The notes below the pieces were generated by a model, which had not been told where the DNA came from, made no database searches, and saw only the letters and a program-made list of their open reading frames with translations. From assembly GCA_964607655.1 (NCBI GenBank), contig CAZSKX010000001.1, positions 363,010-427,009 of the forward strand: 64,000 nucleotides of DNA, written 5' to 3'. Positions 18,937 through 24,330 of the stretch are shown one piece after another. The translations under genes were made by a program, and so were the position numbers. Source of the stretch: an uncultured Candidatus Saccharibacteria bacterium. GTDB taxonomy: Bacteria > Patescibacteriota > Minisyncoccia > Phycocordibacterales > Phycocordibacteraceae. Within the stretch, counting starts at the first letter, position 1. The number at the start of each line of letters is the position of its first letter.

Positions 18937-19278
18937 TTAAAAGGGGATGATCGTACGATCGTCAGAAGTGGTCGCCGACGAAGCCGCGGGCGTTACGTTA
19001 ACAATCTGAATACGTGGACTGTCGTCTTCGCCCGAGAGCGCGGCGGCTGCGCCAGCGAGCTGGCTACCATCGGGGCCAACCTTCTCAACAGGCTCTTGCC
19101 CGACCGCGTCGGCAAACTGGCTACCCTGGATCGCAAAGGAATTCGTGGCGAGTGAAGCGGAGAGCCACACCAGAGCAACGAGACCCGTAGCACCGCCGGC
19201 AACGCTAAAGGCCACCTTCTTACGAATGTGGTGCGGCTGCTCCTTAACCCGGTTTACGTGGTGAATAATGCGTCGCAT
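18937..19278 (-). CDS. Hypothetical secreted/membrane-anchored protein
   Basis: 113 aa with an N-terminal hydrophobic segment and an Ala/Gly/Ser-rich body. Confidence 0.35.
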   Translation of the reverse strand: MRRIIHHVNRVKEQPHHIRKKVAFSVAGGATGLVALVWLSASLATNSFAIQGSQFADAVGQEPVEKVGPDGSQLAGAAAALSGEDDSPRIQIVNVTPAASSATTSDDRTIIPF

Positions 19279-19281
19279 ACC

Positions 19282-19923
19282 TTATGCTGTTATTACGATT
19301 ATACTCCCATCTCGACCAACAAGGTCCTTGCGCTTCAGGGTAAGCTTGTCACCCTTCTCGCTCTTACCGCCGCCCTCCTTAATAAAGGTCTCGAGTGACT
19401 TAGGCGCGCCCATGCCCTCCCAGTGCATCGGGATGATGATCTTCGGCTCGAGCGAGACCGCGAGCTCGTGAGCCTTCGCGGGCGTGAGAACTCCATCACC
19501 CCCCACAGGGACAAAGAGCACGTCGATCTCGTCGATATTCTCGCGTGCCTCGCGCGGGAGCTCGCCGTCAGAGAGCGCGCCGAGATGCACGAGGGTCATA
19601 TCCTCAAGCTGAACACTATAAATAGTATTAACGGCCTTCTCCTCGCCCTTACCGAGACCGTACTTACTCTCAGAGAGAAACCCTTGGACCGTCACCCCTT
19701 GGCGCTCGTACTCTCCGGGGCCAGTGATCGCGAAGGGTACCGTATCGCCGTAGGTCACTTCCTCGACGCCGTTCATGTCCGGATGATTACGTGAGACGAG
19801 CGCGATATCCGCACCAAAGCGTACCGACGGAAGGGTCGCTTTCTTACTTATTGGATCGAAGGCGATCGTCAGATCGCCGAGGGTCACCTTAAAGCACTGC
19901 CCGCCGTGGTGCGTGATAACCAT
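19282..19923 (-). CDS. Metallo-beta-lactamase-fold metal-dependent hydrolase (UPF0173-like)
   Basis: ITHHGGQCF (HxHxDH-like) near the N-terminus and conserved D/H residues later; start taken at the internal ATG (MVITHHG). Confidence 0.6.
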   Translation of the reverse strand: MVITHHGGQCFKVTLGDLTIAFDPISKKATLPSVRFGADIALVSRNHPDMNGVEEVTYGDTVPFAITGPGEYERQGVTVQGFLSESKYGLGKGEEKAVNTIYSVQLEDMTLVHLGALSDGELPREARENIDEIDVLFVPVGGDGVLTPAKAHELAVSLEPKIIIPMHWEGMGAPKSLETFIKEGGGKSEKGDKLTLKRKDLVGRDGSIIVITA

Positions 19924-19994
19924 TGCTAATATTCTAACACAAAACTCATCGTATTTCAGCTTCATTCGGCCTCAGGTCCCCGCGTCGCCATAAC

Positions 19995-20023
19995 TTGACA
20001 ATACGATTGTATGCATGTACAGT
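19995..20023 (+). promoter_or_regulatory. Sigma70-like promoter TTGACA-17-TACAGT
   Basis: Exact -35 hexamer, 17-nt spacer and a -10-like hexamer 58 nt upstream of the first cassette ORF. Confidence 0.5.
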
Positions 20024-20081
20024 CCAACGTGGAAGAGCCCCGCAAAAACTTATGCGAACCAAGGCTCGAAAGGAGATCTAA

Positions 20082-20369
20082 ATGAAAGCCAACGTGTATA
20101 ATGAGGTCGATCATCATGACAGTCTCGGTGATGAGGGCTGGATCCGTATTCAAAAGATCTGTTTTGACAAACGGGTTCACATCATTCGCAGTTGGGCAAG
20201 CACAGAAGAGAAGCCCCACTTCCATGAGCGCTGGTTGACCAGCGGCCCTTGCGACGGATCGTGCGTTCGAGAGCTCGACATCCCGCATGGGTTCGAGCCT
20301 GTCATCGAAAGTTTCCTGGCCACCGGCGCCAACGAATCCGAGCCCTACCAACTGACACCGGAGAACTGA
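20082..20369 (+). CDS. Small cysteine-containing protein, 'SGPCD' family paralog A (95 aa)
   Basis: SD AAAGGAG upstream; shares a W-SGPCD-SC...P-G-E motif with the ORF at 21843. Confidence 0.5.
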   Translation: MKANVYNEVDHHDSLGDEGWIRIQKICFDKRVHIIRSWASTEEKPHFHERWLTSGPCDGSCVRELDIPHGFEPVIESFLATGANESEPYQLTPEN

Positions 20370-20451
20370 GCGACCCACACCGATCACGAGCTGCCCACGG
20401 GCTCGTGGTCCCGGCAGCTGGGCTGTTCGTGAGTTCAAGAAGGAGACTCTA

Positions 20452-20688
20452 ATGCCCCTCAACATCGCGTTCATCAGCGCACACGGCGGCAAGCCAGCCG
20501 CAGTCGTCACCCACGAAGAATCGTCCGATGCCGTGCAGGCTGACCTCGACTCGGCTGGCGGCGACAACGAGAAGGTCGTCTCGTTCATCCAAGTAGAGGG
20601 TGTGACTGCCGACCTGCTCTCGGCTCTCATGGGTACCGATCTCATGACGGACCTGGAGGCATTCCTCACACAGGTGCACAACGCCTGA
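20452..20688 (+). CDS. Small acidic hypothetical protein (78 aa)
   Basis: SD AAGGAG upstream; followed by terminator repeat T-B. Confidence 0.45.
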   Translation: MPLNIAFISAHGGKPAAVVTHEESSDAVQADLDSAGGDNEKVVSFIQVEGVTADLLSALMGTDLMTDLEAFLTQVHNA

Positions 20689-20699
20689 ACCCCCACGCC

Positions 20700-20752
20700 G
20701 ACCACGAGCTGCCCTCCGAGCTCGTGGTCACGGCGGCGGGGGTTTTTTGTTT
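20700..20752 (+). terminator. Terminator-repeat family copy (gaccacgagc...gctcgtggtc + acggcggcggggg + T-tract)
   Basis: 10-bp stem plus a T-tract; related copies at 20382-20410 (no T-tract) and 21325-21374. Confidence 0.65.
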
Positions 20753-20880
20753 ACCGCCAAAATAATTCGACGAGGAGCTTGACAAATTACTCAGCAAGCG
20801 CATGCTGCACTCTCTGGTGAGGCAGTCCGCCCCACCCCAACCGGTCCCTAAGCGAGCCCGACCCCAGGAGGTAAATCGCG

Positions 20881-21309
20881 ATGCTCAAAAAGCACACTTT
20901 GTTCTTTTCATCCGCAACGCGCAACCAGATCGAAAGCGATCCGCGCTTACTGCTGCGCCCTGGATTCGTGAAGGCAATGGAGTTGCCCGGCGCAATTCTC
21001 CGACAAGCGAAGGTGAGTTCCGTGCACGTGACGGGAGATGCGTGGTCGGAGTTTCGCCTCGGCGCTTCCGAGGCCCTACTCACCATCTCTGCAATGCTCC
21101 TCGCGCCTCGTGTGGAGAGCACCATCGAGCTGGCCAGCCCTCACGGGTTACTCGCCAACACCGCCCAGGTGGACATCGAGTTCTTCAGGAGGGGCCAGGC
21201 CGGAGCCAGCTTCGTCCTCTCGTTCAACATCGACCTCGACTCTGCGGAGATGCGGCACGTCGCATACCGAAAGCCGGGCGGACCGGGGACGATGGTCTTC
21301 GCCGCCTGA
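20881..21309 (+). CDS. Hypothetical protein (142 aa)
   Basis: SD AGGAGG upstream; followed by terminator repeat T-C. Confidence 0.45.
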   Translation: MLKKHTLFFSSATRNQIESDPRLLLRPGFVKAMELPGAILRQAKVSSVHVTGDAWSEFRLGASEALLTISAMLLAPRVESTIELASPHGLLANTAQVDIEFFRRGQAGASFVLSFNIDLDSAEMRHVAYRKPGGPGTMVFAA

Positions 21310-21324
21310 CAACACTCCCCTCGT

Positions 21325-21374
21325 GACCACGAACCTTCCCGGTTCGTGGTCACGGCGGCGGGGTGTTTTTGTTT
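21325..21374 (+). terminator. Terminator-repeat family copy
   Basis: Perfect 11-bp stem gaccacgaacc/ggttcgtggtc + acggcggcggggtg + T-tract. Confidence 0.65.
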
Positions 21375-21443
21375 ATATGAACTCCCCAGCGTATAGTAAG
21401 TCTAGATCGATCTAGTCCTTCACTGTCATCCGAGGAGGTCCTT

Positions 21444-21686
21444 ATGCGGGGGAAACATGCGCTCCATGAACGACTGCAGACCGCGGGCATTGCCTATGCG
21501 GCGCTCGGGCTGGGTGTCAGCTTCTACACAATCAGCCACTTCGTCCAGCTACACCGGAACGGGCCGATCATTCACCAGGCCGATGTGGCCCTCGCGCATT
21601 CGCTCGTGTTCACCACGGTCCTACTCCTTGGCGCTGCAGCTTGTGCCATCTCTGGTGCATTACTTCTTAAACGGTTTAGTCCGTAG
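21444..21686 (+). CDS. Small membrane protein (80 aa, 2 TM)
   Basis: SD GAGGAGG upstream; a TATAGT -10-like hexamer at 21394; followed by hairpin 21706-21741. Confidence 0.45.
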   Translation: MRGKHALHERLQTAGIAYAALGLGVSFYTISHFVQLHRNGPIIHQADVALAHSLVFTTVLLLGAAACAISGALLLKRFSP

Positions 21687-21705
21687 ACAGGATTCCAGTC
21701 CTTAA

Positions 21706-21741
21706 GGGCGGCGCTCGAAAGAACGCCGCCCTTTTCCTTTT
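21706..21741 (+). terminator. Terminator hairpin (gggcggcg-ctcgaaagaa-cgccgccc + T-tract), repeat copy 1
   Basis: Near-identical copy at 22160-22195. Confidence 0.65.
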
Positions 21742-21752
21742 CCCGCTTGATA

Positions 21753-21781
21753 TTGACAACTATTATCAAACGGCGTATAGT
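21753..21781 (+). promoter_or_regulatory. Sigma70-like promoter TTGACA-17-TATAGT
   Basis: Consensus -35, 17-nt spacer and a near-consensus -10, followed by the shared 5'UTR motif. Confidence 0.55.
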
Positions 21782-21842
21782 ACCAAGCAGAAGAGCCCCG
21801 CAAAAACTTATGCGGACCTGGCTTACGGACGGGAGAAACCGA

Positions 21843-22139
21843 ATGAACGGAAGAGTCTATCTCACCGAACAACCGGAGAGCGGCCACACCAGCATCACAC
21901 GAACCATGACGCACGTGTGCGTCGACCAGCTGGTGCACCTGTACTGCGTTCGTGACGTGAGCCAGGGCGTCGAGACTGCCACATGGAACGTGTCCGGCCC
22001 CTGCGATACGCGATCCTGCGAAAACGCCTGGGCCGTACTGCCTCGAGGGGCAGAGTTCATCGCAACGGAGTTCATCAACACCCAAGGCCGGGACTGCCAC
22101 AAGGTCACGAGCACGCGGCAACTGCCTGCTAAGTCCTGA
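21843..22139 (+). CDS. Small cysteine-containing protein, 'SGPCD' family paralog B (98 aa)
   Basis: Paralog of 20082..20369; start at the internal ATG behind the GGGAGAAA SD; terminator copy 2 follows at 22160-22195. Confidence 0.5.
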   Translation: MNGRVYLTEQPESGHTSITRTMTHVCVDQLVHLYCVRDVSQGVETATWNVSGPCDTRSCENAWAVLPRGAEFIATEFINTQGRDCHKVTSTRQLPAKS

Positions 22140-22305
22140 CCTTCAACCAGGTTCACAAAGGGCGGCGTTCGAAAGAACGCCGCCCTTTTCCTTTTCATAC
22201 ATATTTGCTATAGTTGACCCGTTGCGTGCGGGCATTAGTTGAGGAATAACCCTCCCAAGCGAAAGCGACGGACACCCTCGGCGAATCCAGCACTGCTTTT
22301 ATAGA

Positions 22306-23430
22306 ATGTCTGAAGAGACTCAAGTTGCTGCTAAGGCAGCGCCGATAGTAACGATCCATGTCGCCGACGACCACCCGATGAGGGGGCTCGTTGACGGTAT
22401 CGCTACTCCACCAGGTAACGGCGACATCGTCGAAGGCGCGATCATCGCGATCAGTCGCGGTCGCGTCTACGTCGACCTACCGCCGTTTGGTACGGGTATT
22501 ATTTACGGCCGCGAATACCTAAATGCTGCCGACGTGCTGCGTAAGGCTAATCAGGGCGACATCATCACAGCTAAGGTGATCGACCCTGCTGGCCGCGACG
22601 GCTATATCGAGCTCTCGCTTAAGGAGGCTCGTCAGGCTGCCATCTGGGGCGAGGCCGAGAAGGCGATCCTCACTCAGGCGGTCTACACTCTCGAGGTCGA
22701 AGAGGCCAACAAGGGCGGTCTTATCCTCACCTGGCAGGGTATCCAGGGCTTCCTCCCTGCCTCTCAGCTCTCTAAGGAGCACTATCCTCGCGTGCCTGAA
22801 GGCGACAAGGAGAAGATCCTTGGTGAGCTTATGCGCCTCGTCGGTAAGCCGCTCTCAGTCCGCATCATCACTGCTGACGCGAAGGAAGGTAAACTTATCT
22901 TCTCTGAGCGCACGGAAGGTGAGGCTGAAGAGAAGGCGTCACTCATCGACAAGTACGTGGTCGGTGACACGGTTGAGGGCGAGATCACGGGCATCGTCGA
23001 CTTCGGCGTGTTCGTTAAGCTCGAGCAGGGTCTCGAGGGTCTCGTGCACATCAGCGAGATCGACTGGGGCCTCGTCGAAGATCCTCATGCCCTCTACAAG
23101 GTCGGCGACCGGGTGAAGGTAAAGGTGATCGAGATCAAGGAGGGCAAGATTTCTCTCTCGATCAAGTCGCTCAAGGAGAATCCTTGGAAGACCGCTGGCG
23201 AACGCTACAAGAAGGAGATGGAGGTGCCGGGCGTTATCATCAAGTACAACAAGCACGGTGCGCTCGCCTCGATCGAGGAGGGTGTCGCGGGCTTGGTGCA
23301 CGTAAGCGAGTTCACCTCGCCAGCACAGCTGCGCGAAACGCTCGAGCTCGGTAAGACCTATCCGTTCTCGATCACACTCTTCGATCCGAAGGAGCAGCGC
23401 ATGACGCTGACCTATAAGGGTAAGAAATAA
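22306..23430 (+). CDS. rpsA: 30S ribosomal protein S1 (four S1 domains)
   Basis: Repeated S1 OB-fold signatures (GxV...G-FV-L; HISE-; HVSE-) across 374 aa. Confidence 0.8.
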   Translation: MSEETQVAAKAAPIVTIHVADDHPMRGLVDGIATPPGNGDIVEGAIIAISRGRVYVDLPPFGTGIIYGREYLNAADVLRKANQGDIITAKVIDPAGRDGYIELSLKEARQAAIWGEAEKAILTQAVYTLEVEEANKGGLILTWQGIQGFLPASQLSKEHYPRVPEGDKEKILGELMRLVGKPLSVRIITADAKEGKLIFSERTEGEAEEKASLIDKYVVGDTVEGEITGIVDFGVFVKLEQGLEGLVHISEIDWGLVEDPHALYKVGDRVKVKVIEIKEGKISLSIKSLKENPWKTAGERYKKEMEVPGVIIKYNKHGALASIEEGVAGLVHVSEFTSPAQLRETLELGKTYPFSITLFDPKEQRMTLTYKGKK

Positions 23431-23522
23431 GAACTCAAATCATGTCTGACACGCCCGCGGCTCTGTGAGCCGCGGGCGTGTTATCGTATGGCAAGAACGC
23501 CAAACGATACGGAGGATAACCA

Positions 23523-23702
23523 ATGGCGCGATTTTTATTCTGGACGCTCGTACTTGTCGTGATACTCATGCTGGCGTGGTTCCTGATCTCTCAGGGCCAA
23601 TCTCCATGGACGGCGATTCCTGGTGCGATCGTCGGCGGATTTATTCTCGTCGTACTCTCCACCCGAGAGGAACGCCGAGGCATGTCTGAATCCGACTGGT
23701 GA
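23523..23702 (+). CDS. Small membrane protein (59 aa; below the ORF-track cutoff)
   Basis: ATG with SD GGAGGA 7 nt upstream, two hydrophobic helices; followed by hairpin 23708-23735. Confidence 0.4.
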   Translation: MARFLFWTLVLVVILMLAWFLISQGQSPWTAIPGAIVGGFILVVLSTREERRGMSESDW

Positions 23703-23733
23703 CTCAAGACCCCGCTTCGGCGGGGTCGTCCTT

Positions 23734-24330
23734 TTAACGCGTATTGGCGAACATCGTCGCCGCTTCAGTTCCGTCAGTGACGAAGAGCTGCGCTGCTTCT
23801 ACACTCTTCTTCATAACTTTTTTTAATACTGTGTCTTCAGTCGACTTGAACTTCCCGATCACGTGCTTGATCACTTTTTCTTCTCCTGAGACTTTCTTTG
23901 CCTGATTTTTCTTCCCCGCAGCACTGATCCCGATGCGTAGACGCGCGAAGTCTTTCGTCTTGATCGCCCGCATGATGCTCTCGACGCCCTTGTGGCCGCC
24001 GCTGCCGCGTCCGACGACCATCTTCGTCACCCCGAGCGGCAGATCGAGATCGTCCTGCACCACGAGCAGCGTCTTTGCTGCTTTTACAGATTTAACAAAT
24101 GGAATTACCGCCTTTCCTGAGAGATTCATCATCGTCTCGGGTAGCACGAGGGTCACTTTTTCCTTGCCAATCTTTCCTTCTGCTACGAGCGCGTTCGCTT
24201 TTTTATTAAAAATGAAGTCATCGAAGCCTTCTGCCGCTGCGAGCTTCTCGACGAGCAGGCGTCCAGCGTTGTGCCGCGTCTTTTCGTATTCTTTACCGGG
24301 ATTCCCGAGGCCTACAATAACGAATGCCAT
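23734..24330 (-). CDS. pth: Peptidyl-tRNA hydrolase
   Basis: N-terminal VGLGNPG...YEKTRHNAG, a hallmark of the Pth family; start at the internal ATG. Confidence 0.85.
   Translation of the reverse strand: MAFVIVGLGNPGKEYEKTRHNAGRLLVEKLAAAEGFDDFIFNKKANALVAEGKIGKEKVTLVLPETMMNLSGKAVIPFVKSVKAAKTLLVVQDDLDLPLGVTKMVVGRGSGGHKGVESIMRAIKTKDFARLRIGISAAGKKNQAKKVSGEEKVIKHVIGKFKSTEDTVLKKVMKKSVEAAQLFVTDGTEAATMFANTR

What the first reader, a model, noticed from the sequence alone, without database searches (positions are those of the whole stretch)
20032..20056. Shared 25-nt 5'UTR motif upstream of both SGPCD paralogs (second copy at 21790-21814)
The exact motif GAAGAGCCCCGCAAAAACTTATGCG sits ~25-30 nt upstream of each ATG and can fold into a small CCGCA-loop-TGCGG stem. 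The flanking sequence diverges while the motif is retained, which suggests selection for a cis-regulatory RNA element (sRNA/protein binding site, thermosensor or processing site) rather than plain duplication.
Basis: seen in the sequence. Interest (0 to 1): 0.5.

Follow-up and report, generated by a model that had tools for sequence, protein, structure and literature searches.

The report
Shared leader hairpin on two paralogs
Two very divergent copies of a small unknown gene in an uncultured Kaiserbacteria-like (CPR) bacterium begin their transcripts with the same 25-base sequence, most likely a small regulatory hairpin kept by selection, but it is confined to one lineage and its function is unproven.

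Summary
The exact 25-mer occurs twice (20032-20056 and 21790-21814), with none expected by chance. In both copies it starts 9 nt after the -10 hexamer of the only two strong sigma70-like promoters in the region, so it is roughly the first 25 nt of each transcript. The two genes are old paralogs (28-32% amino-acid identity; third codon positions 33% identical, i.e. saturated). The identity therefore reflects constraint or homogenisation, not recent duplication. Three other strains keep the motif upstream of the ORF E orthologue, with a single loop substitution in one. In that strain (L119) the 1.76-kb segment between the two copies is missing, with the junction inside the repeat. The motif is the core of a roughly 35-nt two-tier hairpin that leaves the Shine-Dalgarno sequence free. 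There is no Rfam match, no compensatory change within the lineage, and no copy in 73 syntenic Kaiserbacteria loci or in the genome, metagenome or viral scans. The proteins belong to a small, new, acidic family with a Cys-His-Cys-Cys signature (39 members). They show no nucleic-acid-binding fold, so self-regulation is unlikely. My best reading is a lineage-specific 5'-leader RNA stem-loop. A DNA operator is the main rival, and the two cannot be separated by computation here. Interest is modest.

The parts
19995..20023 (+). Promoter P1: -35 TTGACA (19995-20000), 17-nt spacer, -10 TACAGT (20018-20023). The predicted transcription start is G20031 or G20032.
   Evidence: 10 of 12 consensus matches; one of only 9 such sites in the 64-kb window. 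The transcription start is inferred from spacing, not measured.
20032..20056 (+). Motif copy 1, the exact 25-mer GAAGAGCCCCGCAAAAACTTATGCG.
20035..20067 (+). Predicted two-tier hairpin of copy 1: outer helix GAGCC (20035-20039) / GGCTC (20063-20067); inner helix CGCA (20041-20044) / TGCG (20053-20056); loop AAAACTTA (20045-20052).
   Evidence: MFE -10.6 kcal/mol, z -0.8; z -1.1.
20082..20369 (+). ORF A, 95 aa, SGPCD-family paralog 1. Its Shine-Dalgarno sequence AGGAGA lies at 20071-20076.
20061..21774 (+). Segment between the two repeat copies (rest of the ORF A leader, ORFs A, B, C and D with their terminators, and most of promoter P2). It is present in the window and absent from strain L119. 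The full repeat-to-repeat period is 1758 bp.
   Evidence: L119 1-653 aligns to window 19409-20060 and L119 610-1183 aligns to window 21775-22342, overlapping only in the 44-nt repeat. Also.
21753..21781 (+). Promoter P2: -35 TTGACA (21753-21758), 17-nt spacer, -10 TATAGT (21776-21781). The predicted transcription start is A21789 or G21790.
   Evidence: 11 of 12.
21790..21814 (+). Motif copy 2, the exact 25-mer.
21793..21824 (+). Predicted two-tier hairpin of copy 2: outer helix GAGCC (21793-21797) / GGCTT (21820-21824, with one G-U pair); inner helix CCGCA (21798-21802) / TGCGG (21811-21815); loop 21803-21810.
   Evidence: MFE -16.9 kcal/mol, z -2.3.
21843..22139 (+). ORF E, 98 aa, SGPCD-family paralog 2. 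Its Shine-Dalgarno sequence GGGAGA lies at 21831-21836. Orthologues (about 91-95% amino-acid identity) occur in L001, L118 and L119.

Best explanation
The 25-mer is the core of a lineage-specific 5'-leader element shared by two old paralogs of a small acidic Cys-His-Cys-Cys protein family. Each copy lies immediately downstream of a near-consensus sigma70-type promoter. The transcript therefore probably begins (A/G)GAAGAG..., and 3-4 nt from its 5' end it folds into a two-tier stem-loop: outer helix GAGCC/GGCUY, inner helix (C)CGCA/UGCG(G), 8-nt loop AAAACUUA. The Shine-Dalgarno sequence 10-15 nt downstream stays free. I infer that it acts at the RNA level. As a 5'-proximal stem-loop it would protect the mRNA 5' end. 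Because loop and bulge bases are conserved as strictly as the stems, it is probably also recognised by a shared trans-acting factor that co-regulates both genes. That factor is not the SGPCD proteins themselves. Shown: exact repetition, position relative to the promoter and the ATG, saturation of neutral sites between the paralogs, retention in three other strains, and foldability with a free Shine-Dalgarno sequence. Inferred: the transcription start, action as RNA, stabilisation, and the existence of a binding factor.
For: The repeat is exact and not due to chance. The only two strong promoter-like sites in 19000-23800 lie directly upstream, with identical 8-nt spacing to the motif. The paralogs are saturated at neutral sites (third codon positions 33% identical, amino-acid identity 28%), and the promoter spacers are unrelated. 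The ORF E orthologues in L001, L118 and L119 keep the motif plus GACCTGGCTTA, with 1 substitution in 36 nt, while the 8 nt upstream and the stretch before the Shine-Dalgarno sequence differ in every strain. Both leaders fold into the same two-tier hairpin with a free Shine-Dalgarno sequence. The outer 3' arm lies outside the identical core at a different spacing (6 vs 4 nt) and differs C/U, so pairing is kept through G-C versus G-U; that asymmetry fits an RNA bulge and not a symmetric DNA site. Seven of nine strong promoter-like sites in the window are followed by a hairpin starting 1-6 nt from the predicted start, several of them two-tiered and unrelated in sequence, so 5'-proximal stem-loops look like a general habit of this genome. 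5' secondary structure is an established mRNA stabiliser in both E. coli and B. subtilis (PMC3997798, read). A post hoc observation adds weak support. Two of seven independent distant family leaders (L111, L113) have an NNGCA-loop-TGCNN hairpin at -48..-34, the same distance from the ATG. Their outer pairs differ but stay complementary and their loop lengths differ (8, 4 and 3 nt), against a background of about 0.018 per leader. Variable loop length would fit RNA and not a dimer operator. In L111, an independent genome, two family paralogs at 25% amino-acid identity share an approximately 88%-identical upstream region, and one hairpin there has a compensatory C-G to U-A change.
Against: No compensatory change exists among the five known copies. 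Copy 1 actually loses the fifth inner pair (C-A). Folding z-scores are modest (-0.8 to -2.3). The transcription start is only predicted. A pure stabiliser does not need an invariant loop. A covariance model built from the window-lineage copies did not hit the leaders of distant family genes. Leader hairpins are not significantly more frequent in family genes than in neighbouring genes (8 of 10 vs 12 of 27). The one natural substitution (loop A to G in L119) improves the DNA dyad to 8 of 9, which mildly favours the operator rival. Only five copies from one species-level lineage are known.
Confidence: 0.45

Rival explanations
1. The motif is a DNA operator. The 18-bp imperfect dyad CCGCAAAAACTTATGCGG, at about +9 to +26 of both promoters, would be bound by a dimeric repressor encoded elsewhere in the genome, which co-represses both paralogs by blocking promoter escape or elongation.
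For: The dyad matches 7 of 9 positions in copy 2, 6 of 9 in copy 1 and 8 of 9 in L119, where the single natural substitution creates the central G-C. The spacer (loop) bases are as conserved as the arms, as expected for a protein-contacted DNA site. The position just downstream of the start is classical for repressors (lacO1-type; general knowledge). SGPCD-family arrays in three other genomes lie next to a TrmB-family regulator gene.
Against: The conserved GAAGAGCC 5' part and the RACC..GGCTY 3' part are not symmetric about the dyad centre, and the 3' part shifts by 2 nt between copies. There is no TrmB-like gene in the 64-kb window. Similar start-proximal hairpins follow most strong promoters of this small genome, and it is unlikely that each has its own repressor in a regulator-poor CPR genome (inference). 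If the L111 and L113 hairpins are homologous, their arm spacing (3, 4 and 8 nt) is incompatible with one dimeric DNA binder.
Confidence: 0.25
2. The motif has no dedicated function. It is simply the best-kept piece of a duplicated promoter-leader, and its identity is maintained by occasional gene conversion or recombination between the two copies (concerted evolution), or by generic constraints on the initially transcribed sequence.
For: The two copies demonstrably recombine or mark a recombination junction: L119 equals the window minus the segment between them. Intergenic modules are repeated within other small-ORF arrays as well (L110, L111, L117), so homogenisation of non-coding modules could be a general property of these islands.
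Against: A 25-29-nt identity tract is at or below the usual minimal length for efficient homologous exchange (general knowledge), and the conversion tract would have to coincide exactly with the foldable element in each case. L119 carries only one copy on its 1.2-kb contig, so no conversion partner is in evidence there, yet it still keeps 24 of 25 nt, while the 8 nt between the -10 hexamer and the motif differ completely. In L111 the repeated module shows a compensatory pair change, which indicates selection on structure and not mere copying.
Confidence: 0.17
3. The motif is a recombination (att-like) site. It would be the core at which a 1.76-kb cassette block (ORFs A-D plus P2) is inserted or excised, leaving an identical core on each side.
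For: Identical direct repeats exactly bracket a segment that is present in the window and absent in L119. The MBL-S1 gap is a hot spot of variable small cassettes across related species. Another cassette (ORF X in L001/L118) is flanked by a 10-bp direct repeat.
Against: The five island ORFs show no recombinase domain. P2-motif-ORF E is contiguous and orthologous in L001 and L118, so P2 is not obviously element-borne. ORF A and ORF E are paralogs, so co-duplication of gene and leader followed by homologous deletion explains L119 more simply. L119 is a 1.2-kb metagenome contig, and chimeric assembly across the repeat cannot be fully excluded.
Confidence: 0.08
4. The motif is a riboswitch, an RNA thermometer, or the start of an upstream ORF or N-terminal extension.
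For: The motif lies in a 5' leader and contains an ATG (20052, 21810).
Against: No Rfam family matches, even at E up to 10. The element is only about 35 nt and has no alternative pairing with the Shine-Dalgarno sequence or a terminator; the Shine-Dalgarno sequence and AUG are free. The internal ATG gives a 9-aa peptide in copy 1, an in-frame extension in copy 2 and L001, and an out-of-frame 19-aa peptide in L119, and it has no Shine-Dalgarno sequence at a usable distance. The family N-termini (M-x-A-x-[VIF]) fix the annotated starts.
Confidence: 0.03

Closest known systems
5'-terminal stabiliser stem-loops (E. coli ompA and papA leaders; B. subtilis aprE leader and other 5' stabilisers)
   Same: The hairpin is predicted to begin within about 3-5 nt of the transcript 5' end, upstream of a free ribosome-binding site. 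Such structures hinder RppH, RNase E and RNase J access (PMC3997798). Most strong promoters in this window are followed by such a hairpin.
   Different: Stabiliser hairpins need structure, not sequence. Here the loop, the bulge and the 5' tail are invariant between paralogs whose coding sequences are saturated. Stabilisation, the transcription start, and the organism's RNase repertoire were not tested.
The 'cold box' of E. coli cspA/cspB/cspG/cspI 5' UTRs
   Same: It is a short, highly conserved sequence near the 5' end of the leaders of paralogous genes encoding small proteins (PMC6719143). By analogy it would be a shared cis element that lets one factor control all paralogs.
   Different: The csp leaders are 145-160 nt long, whereas these are about 51-54 nt. 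SGPCD proteins are not cold-shock-domain proteins (no Pfam hit) and are acidic, so self-binding is unlikely. There is no sequence similarity.
Start-proximal dyad operators (lacO1 type)
   Same: An imperfect 18-bp dyad lies just downstream of the transcription start of a strong promoter.
   Different: No cognate regulator has been identified. Conserved sequence extends asymmetrically beyond the dyad.
Repeated structured intergenic modules of small-ORF arrays in CPR genomes (seen here in L110, L111 and L117; I know of no published description)
   Same: Within one island, unrelated or highly diverged small ORFs share near-identical promoter, leader and terminator modules.
   Different: The modules differ in sequence between genomes. 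The window's 25-mer itself is found only in its own lineage.

Membership tests
Any curated cis-regulatory RNA family (Rfam 15) | Covariance-model score at or near the family's gathering threshold. | tested here: not met
   No hit over the motif at gathering thresholds or at E up to 10 in 19900-22320.
RNA thermometer / Shine-Dalgarno-masking switch | The Shine-Dalgarno sequence or the AUG is paired within the regulatory hairpin. | tested here: not met
   In both MFE and centroid folds the Shine-Dalgarno sequence and AUG are unpaired or outside the motif hairpin.
Riboswitch | A conserved aptamer with covariation-supported helices plus an expression platform (terminator or Shine-Dalgarno-sequestering helix). 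| tested here: not met
   The element is about 35 nt, has 0 compensatory pairs, and has no downstream terminator or anti-Shine-Dalgarno pairing.
5'-terminal stabiliser stem-loop | A stem-loop beginning within a few nucleotides of the mRNA 5' end. | tested here: inconclusive
   Met if the start is 7-9 nt after the -10 hexamer; the helix then begins at +4 or +5. The transcription start is predicted, not mapped.
5'-terminal stabiliser stem-loop | It increases mRNA half-life by blocking 5'-end-dependent RNases. | not testable with these tools
   This needs half-life measurements. The RNase E, J, Y and RppH genes of this genome were not surveyed.
csp cold-box-type shared leader element | A conserved sequence near the 5' end of the leaders of paralogous genes. 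| tested here: met
csp cold-box-type shared leader element | The genes encode cold-shock-domain nucleic-acid-binding proteins with long (about 150 nt) leaders. | tested here: not met
   No cold-shock-domain or other Pfam hit. The family is acidic, median pI 5.0. The leaders are about 51-54 nt.
Dyad-symmetric promoter-proximal operator | Dyad symmetry with fixed half-site spacing. | tested here: met
   6 of 9, 7 of 9 and 8 of 9 complementary positions in copy 1, copy 2 and L119.
Dyad-symmetric promoter-proximal operator | A cognate DNA-binding regulator. | not testable with these tools
   None is encoded in the island. There is no TrmB homologue in the window. The rest of the genome was not available.
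att/attC-type site-specific recombination site | An identical core flanking a segment that is present or absent between strains. | tested here: met
   L119 versus the window.
att/attC-type site-specific recombination site | An associated recombinase, and element-borne sequence continuity across the core. | tested here: not met
   The island ORFs have no recombinase domain. P2-motif-ORF E is contiguous in the L001 and L118 orthologues.

The most novel reading that the evidence does not exclude
The hairpin could be the window-lineage version of a family-wide cis element: NNGCA-loop-UGCNN, about 27-48 nt upstream of the start codon. It would co-evolve with a previously undescribed CPR-specific family of small acidic Cys-His-Cys-Cys proteins that live in arrays of small ORFs with repeated structured intergenic modules. 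That would make it a new RNA-based co-regulation and processing system for fast-evolving accessory gene cassettes in Patescibacteria.
Probability: 0.12. Interest if true: 0.55.

Novelty: new member of a known kind. Interest (0 to 1): 0.3.

Why it matters
If the element is functional, it is a rare, concrete handle on gene regulation in Patescibacteria (CPR), where almost no cis-regulatory elements have been defined. It gives a 25-35-nt sequence tied to a strong promoter and to a new small-protein family, and it could be tested directly with reporter fusions. It also shows how non-coding control modules can stay fixed while the proteins they drive diverge beyond easy recognition. Finally, such repeats act as breakpoints for cassette gain and loss in a variable island. 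As it stands, the element is lineage-restricted and mechanistically unresolved, so its wider importance is limited.

Tried and rejected
1. Rfam at gathering and relaxed thresholds found nothing at the motif.

2. Collection scans found no real copy:
- The exact 21-mer in 185,579 species-representative genomes gave 0 hits.
- The 22-mer in viral contigs gave 0 hits.
- The stem-degenerate pattern AAGAGCCNNNNNAAAACTTANNNNNACC gave 3 viral and 28 metagenome hits. All are chance matches: none has five complementary arm pairs, the CCGCA/TGCGR arms or an upstream promoter.
- That pattern missed L119 because of its loop substitution. I found L119 only through the protein cluster.

3. In the 73 S1-anchored syntenic loci there is no copy within 6 mismatches and no SGPCD gene.

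4. A covariance model built from the four window-lineage copies hit no distant family leader. Two weak hits inside the related islands of L007 and L020 (E about 2) have broken pairs, and I treat them as chance or degenerate.

6. A TrmB regulator as the trans factor: it is adjacent to family arrays in three other contigs, but no homologue exists in the window.

7. An upstream ORF or N-terminal extension from the internal ATG gives inconsistent products across copies.

8. A leader-hairpin enrichment test (family vs neighbouring genes vs shuffles) showed a trend only: 8 of 10, 12 of 27, and about 0.3.

9. A search for family members on viral contigs found none. The afdb50 fold library was unavailable.

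Full report
**Observation.** The 25-mer GAAGAGCCCCGCAAAAACTTATGCG occurs exactly twice in the window, at 20032-20056 and 21790-21814 on the + strand. There are no further matches at up to 3 mismatches, and none appeared in 100 dinucleotide shuffles. It ends 25 nt and 28 nt upstream of the ATGs of two small ORFs: ORF A (20082-20369, 95 aa) and ORF E (21843-22139, 98 aa). The two proteins share SGPCD and are weak but real paralogs (32% identity over 60 aa, E=9e-5). The 5-bp CCGCA/TGCGG stem exists only in copy 2. Copy 1 has A instead of G after the 25-mer and forms 4 bp.

**Anatomy.**
- A consensus scan of 19000-23800 finds three promoter-like sites. The two strong ones sit directly upstream of the two copies: TTGACA-17-TACAGT ending at 20023 and TTGACA-17-TATAGT ending at 21781.
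- In both, exactly 8 nt separate the -10 hexamer from the motif. Position 8 is a purine in every strain, so the motif is essentially +1/+2 to +25/+26 of the transcript. This is inferred from spacing, not measured.
- Only nine sites of this quality exist in the whole 64-kb window.
- Conservation between the copies follows functional elements only: -35 TTGACAA, -10 TAYAGT, the 25-mer, RACC, GGCTY and the Shine-Dalgarno sequence. The 17-nt spacers, the 8 nt before the motif and the rest of the leader are unrelated.
- Both leaders fold into the same two-tier hairpin: outer helix GAGCC/GGCUC or GGCUU, inner helix (C)CGCA/UGCG(G), 8-nt loop AAAACUUA. The folding energies are -10.6 and -16.9 kcal/mol (z -0.8 and -2.3). 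The Shine-Dalgarno sequence and the AUG stay unpaired.

**Is the identity just a recent duplication?** No. In a codon-aware alignment, ORF A and ORF E are 28% identical in protein and 43% in nucleotides, with 33% at third positions, which is saturated. A 25/25 match (28 of 29 including RACC) in that background needs purifying selection or repeated homogenisation.

**Relatives.**
- Word-indexed searches found ORF A only in its own genome. They found ORF E in a 90% cluster of four strain variants.
- The three other strains are short metagenome contigs: L001, L118 and L119. All carry promoter, motif and ORF E between the same flanking genes, an MBL-fold hydrolase and ribosomal protein S1.
- Across them the motif plus the following GACCTGGCTTA is unchanged except for one loop substitution in L119 (AAAACTTA to AAAGCTTA). 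The 8 nt upstream and the stretch before the Shine-Dalgarno sequence differ in every strain.
- Coding divergence among these strains is only 5-7%, so this orthologue comparison adds only weak evidence of constraint. The paralog comparison carries the argument.

**A structural polymorphism at the repeat.** L119 positions 1-653 align to window 19409-20060 (84.8%), covering the hydrolase gene, P1 and the motif. L119 positions 610-1183 align to window 21775-22342 (91%), running from the P2 -10 hexamer through the motif and ORF E to the start of the S1 gene. The two alignments overlap only in the 44-nt repeat.
- L119 is therefore the window minus the 1,758-bp period that contains ORFs A-D and P2.
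- The A/E duplication is far older than the strain split, so the simplest history is deletion by recombination between the two motif copies.
- Caveat: L119 is a 1.2-kb contig, and chimeric assembly across the repeat cannot be fully excluded.
- L001 and L118 instead carry a different 83-aa cassette (ORF X) upstream of P2-motif-ORF E.

**Distribution.**
- The exact 21-mer is absent from 185,579 species-representative genomes, and the 22-mer from viral contigs.
- A stem-degenerate pattern returned only chance matches in viral and metagenome contigs.
- Seventy-three S1-anchored syntenic loci identify the organism as a Candidatus Kaiserbacteria-like member of the Patescibacteria.
- The gyrA - MBL hydrolase - gap - S1 order is conserved in 48 of these loci, the ones where both flanking genes could be placed. 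The gap varies from 84 to 1,703 bp there, against 2,340 bp in the window.
- None of the 73 loci contains the motif within 6 mismatches or an SGPCD gene.
- The element is therefore known from five copies in one species-level lineage.

**The gene family.** An exhaustive profile search, followed by a word search with the resulting alignment, recovered 39 unannotated proteins of about 90-210 aa. They share invariant Cys, His, Pro-Cys-Asp and Cys positions, with the consensus C[VI]DxKVH ... GPCDGSC ... FLAxxG.
- The family is acidic: median pI 5.0, and 31 of 36 members below 6.5. Direct binding of their own leader is therefore unlikely.
- In nine other genomic contexts the genes always lie in arrays of small ORFs without Pfam matches. 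Three of these arrays lie next to a TrmB-family regulator gene. The window has no TrmB homologue.

**The same phenomenon elsewhere.** Within L110, L111 and L117, intergenic modules (hairpins plus leader) are repeated between different small ORFs.
- In L111, two family paralogs at 25% amino-acid identity share an approximately 88%-identical 190-nt upstream region. It includes a 55-nt leader segment absent from the non-family gene between them.
- One hairpin there shows a compensatory C-G to U-A change.
- The window's island likewise re-uses its terminator hairpins.
- The 25-mer is therefore one instance of a broader pattern: conserved structured non-coding modules around fast-diverging small ORFs.

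**RNA or DNA?**

For RNA:
- The outer helix uses sequence outside the identical core. Its spacing is shifted and it carries a G-C/G-U difference. That is natural for an RNA bulge but asymmetric for a dimer operator.
- Seven of nine strong promoters in the window are followed by start-proximal hairpins of unrelated sequence. That fits the known stabilising role of 5' structure (PMC3997798) better than many separate repressors in a small genome.
- Post hoc, L111 and L113 carry NNGCA-loop-TGCNN hairpins at the same distance from the ATG. Their outer pairs are complementary but different, and the loop lengths are 8, 4 and 3 nt. The background is about 0.018 per leader.

For DNA:
- The same bases form an 18-bp dyad (7 of 9 positions).
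- Loop bases are as invariant as the arms.
- The only natural substitution raises the dyad to 8 of 9.

Against a strong RNA claim:
- There are no compensatory changes among the five copies.
- The folding z-scores are modest.
- The covariance model found no distant relatives.
- Leader hairpins are not significantly enriched in family genes.

**Other readings.** A thermosensor or riboswitch is not supported: the Shine-Dalgarno sequence is free, there is no expression platform and there is no Rfam hit. The internal ATG gives inconsistent products across copies.

**Verdict.** This is a real, selected, promoter-proximal leader element shared by two old paralogs. It most likely acts as a 5' RNA stem-loop that stabilises the mRNA, possibly with a factor-binding role (0.45). 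The rivals are a DNA operator (0.25), passive homogenisation (0.17) and an att-like site (0.08). The closest functional analogues are 5' stabiliser hairpins and the csp cold box (PMC6719143). It is a member of neither in the strict sense. I class it as a new member of a known kind. Interest is modest because it is confined to one lineage and its mechanism cannot be resolved by computation here.

Noticed in passing
window 19966-22305; L002-L074 (gap between the MBL-hydrolase and S1 genes): The intergenic gap between the divergently oriented MBL-fold hydrolase gene and rpsA (S1) is a hot spot for small, Pfam-less gene cassettes across Kaiserbacteria-like genomes. It measures 84-1703 bp in the 48 relatives where both flanking genes could be placed and 2340 bp (five ORFs) in the window, and its content is almost entirely unrelated between species.
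   Followed up: partly
window 20374-20434, 20692-20753, 21322-21375; and 21704-21742 / 22158-22196: The hairpins that follow the island's ORFs form repeat families of their own. Three share the base GACCAC...GTGGTC(A)CGG; two of these carry a T-tract, and the copy after ORF A is degenerate and lacks one. Their upper stems differ while staying complementary. Two more (after ORF D and ORF E) are 97% identical. The ORF X terminator in L001 belongs to the first family.
   Followed up: partly
window 21392-21415: The ORF D leader has a perfect 14-bp palindrome, CTAGATCGATCTAG (21402-21415), starting 5 nt after a TATAGT -10 hexamer (21392-21397). This is another start-proximal hairpin or dyad in the same island.
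   Followed up: no
window, predicted promoters at 199(-), 9944(+), 26717(+), 41678(+), 56843(-): Most strong sigma70-like promoter matches in the window are followed by a hairpin beginning 1-6 nt from the predicted transcription start (z down to -4.1), and some are two-tiered like the motif. This suggests 5'-terminal stem-loops are a general feature of this genome's mRNAs.
   Followed up: partly
window 20082-20369 and 21843-22139; P0003-P0044: A previously unannotated small-protein family of 39 members. It has invariant Cys, His, Pro-Cys-Asp and Cys positions (a likely metal site). It is acidic (median pI 5.0) and its model is a beta-sheet plus one helix with no clear structural neighbour. It is restricted to CPR-type contigs and always lies in arrays of small ORFs.
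   Followed up: partly
L111 16-804, L117 76-813, and the contig of P0043 (no DNA held): A TrmB-family (PF01978) regulator gene lies next to SGPCD-family small-ORF arrays in three independent contigs. None is present in the window.
   Followed up: partly
L111 1222-2398; L110 upstream of 1341 and 2115; L117 upstream of 1881 and 2314: Structured intergenic modules of about 100-190 nt are repeated inside each small-ORF array. In L111 one hairpin (CCCCGACG..CGTCGGGG versus CCCCGATG..CATCGGGG) shows a compensatory pair change between copies.
   Followed up: partly
L001 39-48 and 506-515 (the same arrangement in L118): The ORF X cassette (promoter, 83-aa ORF and terminator, about 467 bp) that replaces ORFs A-D in these strains is flanked by a 10-bp direct repeat, TTCTAGCACA. 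This sequence is single-copy at the corresponding place in the window (TTCTAACACA, about 19932-19941), so it looks like a target-site duplication.
   Followed up: no
window 20452-20688; L018 5545-5784: ORF B (78 aa), apparently co-transcribed with ORF A, has a 59%-identical homologue in the island of another Kaiserbacteria-like genome. There it has its own TTGACA-18-TACAAT promoter and an unrelated leader.
   Followed up: no
L007 5716-5742; L020 5474-5511: Two weak covariance-model hits (E about 2) to the motif lie inside the homologous islands of related genomes. The L007 one (GAAGATCCCGAAGAAACTTTGCTGACC) sits just upstream of a Shine-Dalgarno sequence and a 26-codon ORF, but its stem pairs are broken. 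It may be a degenerate relative or chance.
   Followed up: partly
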